Shown here one piece after another: positions 2,106 to 59,913 of a DNA stretch of 64,000 bases. The stretch lies in contig NW_021835469.1 of assembly GCF_006345805.1 (NCBI RefSeq), positions 1-64,000 on the forward strand. Direction: 5' to 3'. Position 1 is the stretch's first letter. Every line of letters starts with the position of its first letter. A program made the translations under genes and the position numbers. Source of the stretch: Octopus sinensis. Its lineage: Eukaryota. Under the pieces are notes generated by a model. That model saw only the letters and a program-made list of their open reading frames with translations, was not told the origin of the DNA and did no database searches.

Positions 2106-2630
2106 TAACGGGAGGCTTTATGAAAATAGACAAAAGACGAAGGCAGGTGGAAAACAAACAAACAATTGTATTAGTATGACGCTCAGGAAATATACATAAA
2201 ACAAGTCTTTAACGTTTCGAGCCTACGCTCTTCAACAGAAAGATACACAGAGAGAAAAAAACACAGAAAGAAGGAGAGAAAAAAATGCGTGCAGTAACTA
2301 ACGAACCAACATGGCGATCTGATTTCGGCCAGAAGTCAAAGATCAAACATGAGACGCGAGAGCGAAATTAGGGGAGATAATAGGGTTGAGTGACCAGCTC
2401 CAACATAAGGGTGTGTGTGTGTGTGTGTATGAGAGAGTATTAGTGCGTATGAGAGGTCTGGACGTGTGTATATATAGGGTTGGTGTATGTATTAGTATGT
2501 ATTAGTATGTATAAGGGTGTGTGTGTGTGTGTGTATGAGAGAGTATTAGTGCGTATGAGAGGTCTGGACGTGTGTATGTATAGGGTTGGTGTATGTATTA
2601 GTATGTATTAGTACGTATTAGTGACTATAC
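2106..2630 (-). mobile_element. Short non-coding interspersed repeat (PLE-terminal-like) with an internal ~106-bp tandem duplication
   Basis: Carries an HHR-like motif at 2206-2243. Segments 2405-2507 and 2511-2613 are near-identical TG-rich units. Confidence 0.5.
2206..2243 (-). ncRNA. Minimal type-I hammerhead-like motif (A6U variant)
   Basis: Minus strand: TCTTT-CTGTTGA-A-GAGC-gtag-GCTC-GAAA-CGTT-AAAGA. Stems I and II pair perfectly; stem III is palindromic (AACGTT). Confidence 0.55.
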
Positions 2631-2819
2631 CCGCTCAACTTTATCCCTCTTATATCTCAAAGCCTTTCTTTACTTTCTAGAAGGATCCTCTGTAAATTCA
2701 TCGGCATCTAACTTTGAATGTCTTTGACACTACTATTTTCTATACGGGGAATATCTGGATCTCATCTGTGAGCTCTCTCTCTCTCTCTCAATAATAGTAG
2801 AGCTGTCAAATCATGCAAT

Positions 2820-4690
2820 CATGGAATTGAACCATTTTTATTGATATCGGTATTGTTTCTTTCCAGGTAAGCTGATATCTGTCACTCTTGAAAGCAGACA
2901 AAAAAAGGTTTTAGCCCCACAAAACGTTTTTGTTGACATGATGCTACATTAGGGGATGACGCCTCAGCTTCATCAACAGCGCAAAAGGGAGCAACTGAAT
3001 TTAGGAAGTGACTTGAAGACAATGCTGTTAGCATATCTTGTTGGAGCGTGGAGTATATTATGCACAACAAAATCAGCACGTTTTCTGACATGCAATCAAA
3101 ATGCTGATCATAATAAAGGAATATCTGTTTGAAGTAGATCCAGCTGTTTTTGTTGATCGTTTCCGAATCTAGGATGAGTATTGGATTCATCACTTTGAAT
3201 CTCAGAAACACAGACATACAGTGCCATGGAAATAACCATCAAAGAAGGCTACTGTCGTACGATTTGCAAGTTAGTTAGTTAATTTTTTGGCTCAAAAAGC
3301 AAAAAGCAAGGCCATGTAGGCAGACATGGAGTTATGTACAGGGTGGTGTTCATGTAAAGAGTTCAAGCCACTTGAGGTCAAGGGAGACTTTGAACCGAGC
3401 GGTCGTCGGCATCTTCACCATCTCGTCTGGCAGCTTATTCCACGGATCCGCAACCCGGATGGAGAAAGCACCTCTCCTTCGTTTGAGATGAAATCATCGC
3501 AGATAGAGCTTTTCGGAATGACCCCGCAGCCGACGCTCTGGAGCAGGAATGAAGAACATCTCTTTCGAGAGGTTACACTTTCCGCTTATGATGTTGTGAG
3601 CAAGAATGAGATCTCCATGGCGTCGTCGTTTTTCTAGAGAATAAATGTCGAGCGTCTTCAGCCTTTCTTCATAAGACAAATTCTTGAGACCAAGAACCAT
3701 GCGGGTAGCCAGCTTCTGGACTCTTTCGAGATGCTGTATGTCTTTGAGGAGATAAGGAGAAGAGGCTTGAATCCCGTACTCCAATATGGGTCTCACCAGC
3801 GTGACATAGAGCGGTAAGAATATGGCTGCTGTGAGCATTTAGAATGACCGTCGAATCAAGAACAGAATTCCGCATGCTTTGTTGGTGGCATGGACGCACT
3901 GGGCCGAAGGCGAAAAGGAGGAATCCACCAAGATTCCCAGGTCCTTTACCTGATCAGTCCTCTCCAGCAGCAGAGGACCCGGCTCGAAATAAAGTTGAGT
4001 TGCAGGAGGAGAGCCAACAAGCAGATGACAGCACTTTGACACGTTCAGACACAGGTCCCATTCGTTAGACCATCTCCAAATTTGGTGGAGGCATCGACGA
4101 AGATCCTCTATATCACCGCGAGGAGCGACCAGTTTGACATCGTCGGCAAATAGAAGGGTGTGTTGCGTGAGGTCGTCGGGCAAGTCATTTATGAAGACTA
4201 AGAACAAGTAGTTAATTATGAAGACTAAGACTAAGTAATGTTATGGCCTCAGTTCTTTTTGAATACAAAATGGCTACACCATAAATAGGGAGTAATTTTC
4301 CAGCTTGCTGAGGCAGTTATGGAAATGTCATGTAAAACTGACGAAGGTGTCATTTTTCATCAGGTCAAACTCCAGTACTTGATTTTTTTGTTTTTTTGGG
4401 TGCTGTGCATCAATGAGTCTTTCAGCCTTTTGATAAACATCGCTGTTCTCCTGAATTGGCTGCATATGATTATCACTTATCCTCCAACATGGAGAAACAT
4501 CTGACTTGAAGCCAGTATCGCCGAGATGGTATCGTTATATCAGCTGTTCATGACTTTCTGACCAAGAGGATTAAAGCTTCTTCAGTTATGAAATTTGCAG
4601 CATTGATGAAAGAAGTCTGTGATCTACGAAAGGGACTAGGTTTAAAGAAATTCGTTTGGTCACATTCGATGAGAATATCTCTGACGGTCA
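2820..4690 (+). mobile_element. Decayed mariner transposon split by a LINE at 3271-4233
   Basis: Relic translation: GLAPQNVFVDM..TLGDDASASST..EFRK, DEYWIHHF, KKATVVRFAS | NVMASV, SPELAAYDYHL..MEKHL. These match mariner HTH, first catalytic D and YSPDLAP regions. Confidence 0.8.
3271..4207 (-). mobile_element. 5'-truncated CR1-clade LINE (RT C-terminus) with (TAAC)n tail
   Basis: FLVFINDL, LFADDVKL, LVRPILEY, LERVQ, SYEERL, RGH..KL. Two nonsense stops. Nearly identical to 49487-50481; tail ttagttagtt at 3271. Confidence 0.93.
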
Positions 4691-6678
4691 TTAAAGTATT
4701 CAGCTGACCCCTGTATACATCTATAATGCAATATCTGTAAGTCGTCTAATCTTTTATACCTGCACATACGGAATTTCGATAAACGTAAATAAACATAAAG
4801 GCTATTTGTCACACTCCAACGTAACAAAGAACTGCTTTTTAATTTTAGATTCTATGATGCAGAAATACCGACGATGTTACCCACACTTTCTAATAAAATA
4901 TGAATTAAATTCTCTTGATGATTCAGAAATTTGATTAAGCGATATAATTTCCAAAATTGTCAAATATTTAAAGTATGTTCGTACTTAAGCTAGTTTTAAA
5001 TACAATTGGAGAGTGGTCAGGTATAATACATTATATTGTTGTTGATGAGAATATACTAACATCGAGAAGCAGTAAAAATACTGCGACTCATATTATCTGG
5101 TGTGTATCTGTTCAAACCAATTTACCTATCTTCTAATTTACACACGAGCACATGTGCAATAGGTGCATATGCTTACGTATTTATCTAATTATCCTTTTAT
5201 CTACACATGCACAGACACACTAAACCAAACACACATACACATGCACAGACACACTTAACCAAACACACATACACATGCACATAGAGACACACATATACAC
5301 ATACATACACACATGCACGCACAGACACACATACACATACATACAAATGTCTGAGTTTTTGAAAATATTGTCTTTGTATTTATTATGCACGTATGTCTTT
5401 TCTTGATGCTTCGCTTCACCGTGGTTCTAACAATATCAATAACAGTTCTGCACAGTTTAATAATCTTAAGAAGACACGAGAGAGCTAATTTAGAAATTTA
5501 TTCCGCTTTACGCAGGAGTGATTACTCAAGATTAGATTCCTCACGTGACTCACCACGCGCGGAGAGATGTTCTTTATTTTTGGCTATTATGCCGTATTGA
5601 AATGTCAATTGGCTTTTTGTTTGTCACTTCAAATAAACTTCAAAAAGTATGTAGTAATTCGACCTTTTGTAATGTTCTTTATTTCGTCCATCCCTTTCGG
5701 CAATGTGTACATTCTTGCGCATATAGAATTAAAATAAGTAAGTGTTAGAAGAAATTAAGAAAATAACCCGTTTGAACGTTCATTGTATCGAACAGGAACC
5801 TAGAGAATGTATAACTAAAAGAGAAGTTTCCATACGGTTTTTGCTAGTATGCGAAACAGTAAATGAAAACCTTTTATGGGACAGGCATTTATAATCGACA
5901 TTTTGTTGTTTTAATATATTTTGAATTGGGACATTTATATTAAATATCTTGCACACTCCCGCGATCATTAACATTGTTAATATTAATTATCACCTTTGAT
6001 TTTTACTTAGATTTATGTTCTCATGGCAATGTTTGCTTCACAAGTATTATGTTTTTTTCATTTTATTCTGTCACAATTTTCGTTGTTTTCTCTTCAATTA
6101 TATATCCGCGTAAATCTACATACGCAAATGCTATGTATTATTACTCTTGTTTTTGATTTGTCTATTTTCGTTTTCAACGGATGACAGATAAAACATACTT
6201 TACATTTATTCACTATTTGAAATATCCACATATCTAGCATTTTTAGAATATTTTTATCTTTTGATTCCTTAAAAGCGTACACTTATGATTCCGTCATCCA
6301 TATTTCATTATTTATAGAAGGATATCGCTTACAAAATGTTATGAGCCACTGCATTTAACCTTTGATAATAAACATTATTTCTATCAGCAATGATGAAAAA
6401 CTACTGCTTAACAAGGTATCTTTGATTCGTACCTAAACGGATCAGCATTAATTTTATTTTCAATGCAGTATTACTGGCGTCCTTATTTATACGTAGAATG
6501 ACGGTGCATATATTTACTGTCATTTTAAAATACATTATATATATCGTTCTAAAATATATTGCATAAGTTTATATACATAAATCTCGTTCAAACTGATATT
6601 ATTCCTCTAAACATATTCGTGTTAAAGTATTCAAGAACGATAAATATTTCACAAAAATGAATATTCAATTGTTTATTA

Positions 6679-59285: not shown

Positions 59286-59589
59286 GTATATATAAAAATT
59301 AAAAATTGTATAATACAGCAGCATTTTCGAACTTCATTTTTTATAATATAGATATATAATATATATATATATATAATATATATAGATATTATATATATAT
59401 ATATATATAATATATATATATATAATATATATAAATATCTATTATATATATTATATATATATATATATATATATATATATATATATATATATATATATAT
59501 ATATATATATATTATATATATATATATATATATATATATATGAAAAAACAAGTAAAAAATAGAAAATGCTAAAATAATTTCATAGTGAA

Positions 59590-59637
59590 CATTTCAGTAC
59601 CGGTTTCGGTCATTTTGAGACCTTTTCAACTGTAATG
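59590..59637 (-). ncRNA. Minimal type-I hammerhead ribozyme, U3-A8 core (left arm)
   Basis: Exact reverse complement of 59866-59913. Confidence 0.78.
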
Positions 59638-59865
59638 ATTAAATAATTAAATTTAGAAAAATTAGAAGAAAAGTTTTTTAAAAGAATATTTCTATAGTAG
59701 TGTTCAGATTTAAGTGGCATTCTGCCTTTCTCTGACTCCCTTGTTTGCACTTGTGTTTCGAACACGAGTCAGAGAAAGGCAGAATGCCACTAAATCTGAA
59801 CACTACTATAGAAATATTCTTTTAAAAAAACTTTTCTTCTAATTTTTCTAAATTTTATTATTAAT

Positions 59866-59913
59866 CATTACAGTTGAAAAGGTCTCAAAATGACCGAAAC
59901 CGGTACTGAAATG
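59866..59913 (+). ncRNA. Minimal type-I hammerhead ribozyme, U3-A8 core (right arm)
   Basis: CATTACAG-TTGAAAA-GGTC-tcaaaat-GACC-GAAA-CCGGTA-CTGAAATG. Palindromic stem III (ACCGGT), GUA triplet. Confidence 0.78.

What the first reader, a model, noticed from the sequence alone, without database searches (positions are those of the whole stretch)
2206..59913. Hammerhead ribozyme zoo: about 10 motifs in at least six unrelated repeat families, four families with the U3-A8 compensatory core
Seen: motifs at 2206(-), 6769(-), 17679(-), 18010(+), 26583(-), 56524(-), 59241(+), 59590(-) and 59866(+), plus remnants at 146 and 47622. Stem II sequences are unrelated yet pair (GAGC/GCTC, GTTGC/GCAAC, GGCTGA/TCAGCC, GGGG/CCCC, GGTTC/GAACT, GGTC/GACC). 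All have a tiny, mostly palindromic stem III. Cores TTGAAAA, TTGACAA and TTGATAA change C3 and G8 together. Known: positions 3 and 8 form a tertiary Watson-Crick pair in active HHRs, and minimal PLE HHRs can fold as dimers through palindromic stem III. Inference: structure is under selection, and a large ribozyme population would be missed by CUGANGA-only searches in this genome.
Basis: partly seen in the sequence, partly recalled or inferred. Interest (0 to 1): 0.75.

Follow-up and report, generated by a model that had tools for sequence, protein, structure and literature searches.

The report
Variant hammerheads in Penelope-type repeats

Summary
The motifs are real. Nine sites form seven insertions in six repeat families. 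A type I hammerhead descriptor gives 6 window hits versus 0.04 in shuffles, and 31 versus 2.1 in a 1.4-Mb genome sample; 27 of the 31 pair at 3-8. Only 4 of the 9 window copies pass. Four are decayed, and family E (59241) is defective as a family.

Families A, B, E and F lie 3' of Penelope-like RT/GIY-YIG remnants; E and F are related (62-65% protein identity). D (56524) is a 362-bp retrozyme-like tandem repeat with a canonical-type U3-A8 hammerhead: 1,460 exact copies, 0 with C3-G8. C has a tRNA-like head.

U3-A8 in PLE hammerheads is published (PMC4209133). The retrozyme-PLE link is in a 2026 preprint, and this scan noted these readings on other DNA before.

N7 and H17 vary across its subfamilies while the rest of the core holds. 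A CUGANGA-only search finds 9 of 27 paired motifs. Cleavage is untested. Verdict: a known system with one unreported-looking core variant.

The parts
2206..2243 (-). Family A minimal hammerhead: stem I UCUUU/AAAGA, core CUGUUGA (C3-G8, U6), extra A, stem II GAGC/GCUC, palindromic ACGU, H17=U. 3' end of a Penelope-like element.
6769..6805 (-). Family B U3-A8 minimal hammerhead, decayed copy (stem I lost)
17679..17724 (-). Family C C3-G8 minimal hammerhead, left arm of a head-to-head insertion; G12 mutated (TAAA)
17750..17800 (+). 3' part of the tRNA-like head (B box) of family C, followed by (TAA)n(AAG)n
   Evidence: ARAGORN calls no tRNA in 8 of 8 loci
18010..18055 (+). Family C hammerhead, right arm; core decayed to ATAATGA
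26584..26620 (-). Family B U3-A8 hammerhead, decayed (stem II and GAAA mutated)
27355..27720 (-). GIY-YIG-like endonuclease remnant of the family B element, upstream of the 26584 motif in sense
   Evidence: no Pfam match on its own, similarity to family A EN at E 9e-8
56445..56868 (.). Family D insertion: 0.72 unit on the - strand (56445-56703) and an inverted 0.41 unit on the + strand (56720-56868) of a 360-362 bp retrozyme-like tandem unit
56505..56584 (-). Family D canonical-type I hammerhead: 6-bp stem I, UAC bulge and distal stem, core UUGACAA (U3-A8), 4-bp stem II with CAAUA loop, palindromic stem III; predicted cut 3' of C at 56530
57395..58216 (+). C-terminal RT/linker/GIY-YIG remnant of the family E Penelope-like element
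   Evidence: (PF01541 E 1.9e-4, just under the gathering score)
59230..59298 (+). Family E U3-A8 hammerhead-like motif (core 59247-59253) with G10.1.U11.1 and an imperfect AU-rich stem I
59590..59637 (-). Family F U3-A8 minimal hammerhead, left arm (short 3' end at about 59540 into (TA)n)
59866..59913 (+). Family F U3-A8 minimal hammerhead, right arm (3' end with a 35-bp tail at about 59963-59997 into (TA)n)
149..202 (+). Family G remnant: decayed copy of a C3-G8 hammerhead with long stem II and 8-nt palindromic stem III
   Evidence: (intact relative in L308)

Best explanation
The sites are copies of type I hammerhead motifs carried at the ends of several Penelope-like retrotransposon families (A, B, E, F), of a tRNA-headed repeat (C) and of a 362-bp non-coding tandem repeat (D), the last two likely moved by Penelope-type enzymes. 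In the master elements the RNA is predicted to fold the hammerhead, the minimal forms likely as dimers through the palindromic stem III, and to cut precursor or multimeric transcripts to unit length. The Penelope RT/endonuclease would then nick (TA)n or AT-rich DNA and prime reverse transcription at two internal sites downstream of the ribozyme. That would give the head-to-head insertions with one short and one tailed 3' end that are seen here. The 3-8 pair is kept as C-G or U-A. Family A kept the fold but fixed U at position 6, so its cutting is likely slow or cofactor-dependent. Genomic copies decay after insertion.
For: Shown here: excess over shuffles; 27 of 31 sample hits pair at 3-8; RT/GIY-YIG remnants near the motif, upstream and in sense in most, in 10 of 30 A loci, 9 of 30 B loci and many E and F loci; a near-full, frameshifted PLE with RT motifs, a C-x4-C-xx-C linker and GIY-YIG upstream of an A motif.

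Family D: 360-362 bp tandem units, 41% GC, circular fold z = -6.7. 1,460 U3-A8 vs 0 C3-G8 exact matches. Two compensatory pairs in the distal stem I among 7 copies. 40 of 47 3' ends at two TATTA sites 64 nt apart, none at the predicted cut, and 16 of 20 two-armed insertions with one end of each kind (hand tally). The same one-sided tail in F (5 of 5 two-armed insertions), E, B and C.

Family A: U6 in 16,350 vs A6 in 203 exact matches. In 19 copies not picked with an A query, U6 in 18, N7 takes all four bases and H17 is U or A only.

From papers: min-HHR anatomy, U3-A8 and dimer model (PMC4209133); inverted copy plus one-sided tail as the PLE signature (PMC8557442); two internal RT start sites make the tail (PMC11167929).
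Against: No cleavage, dimer or circular RNA is shown here. Family E (550 matches, at least 40 identical copies, so young) has a G.U stem II closure and a mismatched stem I, and its predicted minimum-energy fold does not form the hammerhead. U6 in family A changes a core position that is A in all 56 published representatives seen. Hammerhead mutants did not affect insertion of an anole PLE in vitro. The window's own D copy is one of the 4 of 20 exceptions to the short/long end rule. No protein-coding partner was identified for C or D; PLE mobilisation of these is inferred from insertion shape only. The covariation count in D rests on 7 related sequences.
Confidence: 0.82

Rival explanations
1. 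The hammerhead-shaped fold is kept, but cutting is dispensable in at least some families: it serves as an RNA structure bound by the Penelope protein, or is a passenger, so impaired cores (A6U in A, G.U and weak stem I in E) spread freely.
For: A, the most abundant family counted, has U6; E is young and defective. Catalytic mutants did not alter PAc insertion in vitro. Naiads lack canonical hammerheads and still reach high copy numbers. A6C cut a fast hammerhead's rate from 0.30 to 3.6e-6 per min at 0.3 mM Mg2+ (PMC7151607).
Against: In A, H17 stays U or A (19 of 19), N7 is free and C3-G8 is kept across diverged subfamilies, the pattern expected of a working core. The same A6C mutant reached 0.067 per min at 1 mM Mg2+ and 0.18 at 0.3 mM Mn2+. 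3-8 pairing, a catalytic-fold contact, is kept across families.
Confidence: 0.35
2. The U3-A8 families are each independent compensatory switches in unrelated repeats.
For: B shares only 25-31% identity with E/F over short endonuclease stretches, as little as the C3-G8 family A does, and D is non-coding with a different architecture. A switch between two Schistosoma species with similar stem II sequences is visible in the published alignment.
Against: E and F proteins are 62-65% identical, so they may share one event. D may have taken its ribozyme from a U3-A8 PLE. No family here shows both states (0 C3-G8 vs 1,460 U3-A8 in D). No tree was built.
Confidence: 0.3
3. The motifs are chance matches in AT-rich, repeat-rich DNA.
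For: A loose descriptor without stem I gives 135 hits vs 53-90 in shuffles; UUGANAA is an AT-rich word; 5 of 9 window copies fail the descriptor.
Against: Strict descriptors give 15 vs 0.4 and 31 vs 2.1; reversed-pattern controls are 0; the motifs sit at a fixed place 3' of PLE ORFs.
Confidence: 0.02

Closest known systems
Minimal hammerheads (min-HHRs) of metazoan Penelope-like elements, including the U3-A8 families of Schistosoma mansoni (Cervera and de la Pena 2014, PMC4209133; read parts 1-2 of 4 of the text and parts 1-2 of 3 of supplementary file 2; file 1 not held)
   Same: Type I topology, short helix I, extra nucleotide after A9 (A, B, C, G), palindromic stem III, position in the terminal repeat 3' of RT/GIY-YIG, mostly single or opposite-strand copies, U3-A8 core variant (UUGAAAA and UUGAUAA occur in their alignment).
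   Different: Family A has U6; all 56 representatives in their Fig. S3 have A6. E has G.U at 10.1-11.1. E and F lack the extra nucleotide and have a 6-nt palindrome. No cephalopod is in their set.
Animal non-LTR retrozymes (Cervera and de la Pena 2020, PMC7229834, parts 1-3 of 6 and passages; Li, Clavereau and Pollet 2026, bioRxiv 10.64898/2026.07.22.740005, parts 1-2 of 5 and passages)
   Same: Family D: 360-362 bp head-to-tail units up to about 10 in a row, GC 41%, no ORF noted, canonical 6-bp helix I and 4-bp helix II with loop and bulge, strongly self-paired circle. Both papers name PLEs as the likely mobiliser or origin.
   Different: D has a U3-A8 core (the term U3-A8 has 0 occurrences in PMC7229834; 'core' has 0 in the preprint). 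Its insertions show the PLE head-to-head shape with a one-sided 64-bp tail in (TA)n, evidence of a kind not seen in the parts read ('tail' 0 occurrences in the preprint). Circular RNA is not shown for D.
EN+ Penelope-like elements and their insertion units (Craig et al. 2021, PMC8557442, passages; Frangieh et al. 2024, PMC11167929, passages)
   Same: RT plus C-terminal GIY-YIG, cysteine linker in A, E and F, 5' truncation, inverted 5'-truncated copy, tail at one end, (TA)n bias.
   Different: Tails of about 60-64 bp in B and D exceed the 30-40 bp quoted. Clade assignment (Neptune-like linker) is from motif only; no tree was built.
Natural position-6 variant A6C of phage Bcep176 hammerhead (PMC7151607, passages and Table 1)
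   Same: A natural pyrimidine at core position 6.
   Different: A6C is a rare variant in a phage; here it is U6 in a minimal type I motif with at least 16,350 genomic copies. A6U has 0 occurrences in that paper.

Membership tests
PLE minimal hammerhead (PMC4209133) | Core CUGANGA or UUGANAA plus GAAA and NUH | tested here: met
   Met for families B, C, D, E, F, G
PLE minimal hammerhead (PMC4209133) | A at core position 6, family A | tested here: not met
   U6 in 16,350 vs A6 in 203 exact matches; a variant, not a standard member
PLE minimal hammerhead (PMC4209133) | G10.1-C11.1 closing pair and helix I of 3 or more pairs next to the core | tested here: met
   Met for A, B, C, D, F family-typical copies
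PLE minimal hammerhead (PMC4209133) | G10.1-C11.1 and contiguous helix I, family E | tested here: not met
   G.U in the first 100 of 550 matches; U.U at the second pair of stem I
PLE minimal hammerhead (PMC4209133) | Palindromic positions 15-16 and loop 3 | tested here: met
   ACGU, AAUU, ACGCGU, ACAUGU, ACCGGU, ACAGCUGU; predicted self-duplex energies -0.2 to -13.1 kcal/mol
PLE minimal hammerhead (PMC4209133) | Located in the terminal repeat of a PLE (RT plus GIY-YIG) | tested here: met
   A, B, E, F; not found for C, D, G
PLE minimal hammerhead (PMC4209133) | Self-cleavage as dimer | not testable with these tools
   needs an in vitro assay
Non-LTR retrozyme (family D) | Short tandem repeats of 150-450 bp, GC under 45%, each with a type I hammerhead | tested here: met
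   360-362 bp, 41% GC, arrays of 6.35 units in L013 and about 10 on C1
Non-LTR retrozyme (family D) | Canonical helix sizes and loop 1/loop 2 elements; highly self-paired monomer | tested here: met
   6-bp helix I, UAC bulge, 4-bp helix II, CAAUA loop; circular MFE -114 kcal/mol, z -6.7; two compensatory pairs
Non-LTR retrozyme (family D) | Expressed as linear and circular monomer RNA | tested here: inconclusive
   No holder on record as RNA; only contigs could be laid
Non-LTR retrozyme (family D) | Target site duplications longer than 4 bp when present | not tested
   insertions lie in (TA)n, where duplications cannot be read
EN+ PLE insertion unit | Inverted 5'-truncated copy and a tail at one end only | tested here: met
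   F 5 of 5 two-armed insertions, D 16 of 20; long and short ends also in B, C, E
tRNA-derived SINE (family C) | Pol III A and B boxes in a tRNA-like head | tested here: met
   23 heads listed, 18 with the hammerhead within 500 bp; box motifs recognised from recall; ARAGORN calls none
tRNA-derived SINE (family C) | No coding capacity (not the terminal repeat of a coding PLE) | tested here: inconclusive
   A frame stays open through hammerhead and tail in many copies, but 0 of 59 run beyond 76 aa; earlier notes report a coding master

The most novel reading that the evidence does not exclude
Family A is a natural, working hammerhead with a CUGUNGA core: the most abundant ribozyme family counted in this genome has replaced the normally invariant A6 by U and kept cutting, slowly or with help from the Penelope protein or a metal ion, over several subfamily radiations. 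Standard descriptors would then miss about two thirds of an estimated 55,000 intact hammerheads here, and the U3-A8 retrozyme D would be a PLE-mobilised circular RNA traceable to a particular PLE by its 64-bp tail.
Probability: 0.35. Interest if true: 0.65.

Novelty: new variant of a known kind. Interest (0 to 1): 0.4.

Why it matters
What hammerheads do for Penelope-like elements is open: they are near-universal in canonical PLEs, yet catalytic mutants did not affect insertion in vitro and Naiads lack canonical ones. This genome holds a natural series in one background: standard (C, G), compensated U3-A8 (B, D, F), U6 (A, over 16,000 copies) and stem-impaired (E). Assaying these would show how far the core can drift in successful elements and whether cutting is needed. 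In practice, descriptor surveys should allow U3-A8 and N6; in the sample a CUGANGA-only search finds a third of the paired motifs. The U3-A8 swap by itself is not news.

Tried and rejected
Rfam scan: no hammerhead at gathering score; two weak HH9 matches at F.

Loose descriptor without stem I: too close to shuffles to use.

Expression: no RNA holder listed for the D unit. Contigs of runs only guessed to be RNA were laid; they cannot show starts, ends or circles. The unit-to-unit joint in D appears in all four runs, including the two very large runs, so it does not show a circle. The best-covered D contigs in X1 and X5 run into a unique flank not present in my loci, which fits one genomic copy read through. 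No silent control stretch was laid.

A C3-G8 sister subfamily of D: 0 matches.

A coding partner for C: tblastn with three window/locus proteins found none adjacent upstream. An endonuclease fragment directly behind one C copy (L172) is unresolved.

Remnant 47622: relatives show a GAAA-palindrome half and no clear stem II or stem I.

One repeated UUGAAAA motif (L183, L185) was left out of the family tally because H17 could not be placed, and one repeated U3.C8 string (L007, L256, L288) because it lacks stems I and III.

Literature: Lunse et al. 2017 (about dimer-cleaving PLE hammerhead variants) is not held and may already describe these core variants. Searches: A6U/CUGUNGA/CUGUUGA with 'hammerhead ribozyme' listed 3 papers, none on natural hammerhead variants by title and abstract start, not read; U3-A8/C3U/G8A listed 2; SINE+hammerhead+tRNA-derived+Penelope+non-autonomous listed 0. 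bioRxiv supplements were closed.

No RT tree was built; full-length B and F elements were not obtained.

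
Full report
Setting. The window is G000:C11940:1-64000 of a 2.72-Gb, AT-rich, microsatellite-rich animal genome; the contig nearly duplicates C12:28.39-28.45 Mb.

Checking the observation. A type I descriptor needing stems I and II and a palindromic stem III gives 5 window hits vs 0.11 in shuffles, and a version with position 6 free gives 6 vs 0.04. 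Four more are decayed copies of families whose other members pass, and one (59241) is imperfect in the whole family. Two pairs are the arms of single head-to-head insertions, so there are seven insertions. The 146 remnant belongs to a seventh, C3-G8 family; 47622 is not confirmed. Rfam gives only two sub-threshold HH9 matches.

Genome-wide test. I took 140 stretches of 10 kb, evenly spaced on contigs C1-C12 and C14. The strict descriptor found 15 hits (8 U-A, 6 C-G, 1 C.A) vs a mean of 0.4 in 12 shuffles. The relaxed one found 31 (9 C-G with A6, 9 C-G with U6, 9 U-A, 4 other) vs 2.1 in 8 shuffles. Scaled to the genome this is roughly 55,000 intact motifs (about 37,000-82,000 from Poisson error; my arithmetic). 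The two C.A hits are in one family at a CpG and look like decay. By hand, families seen at least twice number 7 with C3-G8, 6 with U3-A8 and 0 mismatched; two doubtful strings were left out (see Tried and rejected).

What the families are. RT/GIY-YIG remnants lie upstream and in sense of A, B, E and F motifs. A near-full, frameshifted element upstream of an A motif has RT motifs, a C-x4-C-xx-C linker and GIY-YIG (Pfam scores are below gathering). E and F proteins are 62-65% identical; A and B share 25-33% with them and each other over short stretches. C copies join a tRNA-like head, (TAA)n and a standard minimal hammerhead. I first read C as a SINE; earlier notes argue it is the terminal repeat of a coding PLE, and an open frame through the hammerhead fits that, but none of 59 copies runs past 76 aa, so it is unresolved.

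Family D. The 56524 motif has canonical helix sizes, a UAC bulge and a CAAUA loop, and lies in 360-362 bp head-to-tail units of 41% GC. The unit folds as a circle at -114 kcal/mol, z -6.7. There are 1,460 exact U3-A8 matches and none with C3-G8. Two distal stem I pairs change on both sides among 7 copies. This matches non-LTR retrozymes (PMC7229834). Of 47 distinct 3' ends in 32 loci, 40 fall at two TATTA sites 64 nt apart, most running into (TA)n, and none at the predicted cut; 16 of 20 two-armed insertions have one end of each kind. F, E, B and C show the same short and long ends. That is the PLE insertion unit (PMC8557442), explained by two internal RT start sites (PMC11167929). The link is proposed in PMC7229834 and argued from distribution and phylogeny in a 2026 preprint, and this scan noted the footprint on other DNA.

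Family A. Stem I UCUUU/AAAGA fixes the register of the 2206 core as CUGUUGA. The U6 form has 16,350 exact matches; the A6 form has 203, about what point mutation of dead copies could give (inference). In 19 copies not selected with an A query, U6 is in 18, N7 is U 9, A 5, G 3, C 2, and H17 is A 12, U 7, while upstream flanks diverge; the 3' half of the motif was the selection pattern, so only C3-N7, stem I and H17 are free tests. Sister lineages with A6 have other loop 2 sequences and a GUUU/AAAC stem I. Contigs from runs labelled as organisms B, C and D list differences at N7 and H17 and none at position 6, though a missing row is no proof. All 56 published representatives have A6, and my searches found no natural A6U hammerhead, but Lunse et al. 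2017 could not be read. A6C data show that a pyrimidine there can cost orders of magnitude at low Mg2+ yet leave activity at higher Mg2+ or in Mn2+.

Family E. It is young (40 of 40 scored matches identical; 550 pattern matches) but has a G.U stem II closure and a mismatched stem I, and its predicted fold is not a hammerhead. One older sample copy has G-C there. With A, it weighs against strict selection for fast cutting.

Comparison and verdict. U3-A8 in PLE minimal hammerheads, with about 1,300 hits in S. mansoni and the same UUGAAAA/UUGAUAA cores, is in PMC4209133. The headline is therefore known biology in a new genome. What is added is the U6 core at very high copy number, U3-A8 in a canonical retrozyme-type ribozyme, and an insertion footprint linking D to PLEs; the last two were noted by this scan before. 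Shown: anatomy, abundance, PLE context, insertion shape. Inferred: dimer folding, cutting, circular RNA, mobiliser identity. Novelty: new variant of a known kind. Interest 0.4.

Noticed in passing
L013:1392-1750 laid on runs X1 and X5: Contigs in two runs guessed to be RNA carry clustered T>C and A>G changes (X1: 17 and 16 places) that are absent or near-absent in the large runs X16 and X17, including positions in stem I. This looks like A-to-I hyper-editing of both strands of the D repeat, but no DNA run of the same individuals is available.
   Followed up: partly
window:38530-38585: An 18-bp tandem duplication gives two overlapping descriptor hits with A3.G8; no homologue in the loci held. 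Chance or a rare decayed family.
   Followed up: partly
window:47600-47690: Repeat family with a CUGAUG-like word about 35 nt before a GAAA-palindrome. It may be a half-core or the split-core permuted hammerhead of earlier notes; not tested.
   Followed up: partly
L206:1938 and 2232, L281:4209: Another U3-A8 family with an A-U pair closing stem II and a 7-bp stem I.
   Followed up: no
L253:7441-7555, L307:3084: A subfamily of F has AGUC/GACU for GGUC/GACC: a compensatory change at the usually conserved 10.1-11.1 pair.
   Followed up: no
L258:3042, L261:3488, L279:2646 and 3439, L311:2755, L240:4987: Further C3-G8 hammerhead families with longer stem III (up to a 12-nt palindrome).
   Followed up: no
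window:40564-42351, 44138-46626, 49415-50416, 3494-4240: Remnants of non-LTR retrotransposon reverse transcriptases (RVT_1 for three tested), two of them next to (TAA)n arrays.
   Followed up: partly
window:9535-10086, 21307-21717, 39363-39710: Mariner-like transposase remnants by eye; DDE_3 at E 0.003 for 21307-21717.
   Followed up: no
window (whole): The window's contig C11940 is 99.9% identical to C12 over the 3.1 kb compared and matches it at all five other sites searched where listed, so it is probably a haplotype duplicate in the assembly.
   Followed up: partly
L172:957-1391 (-): A GIY-YIG endonuclease fragment of a different PLE type is fused in frame directly behind the short 3' end of a family C copy.
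   Followed up: partly
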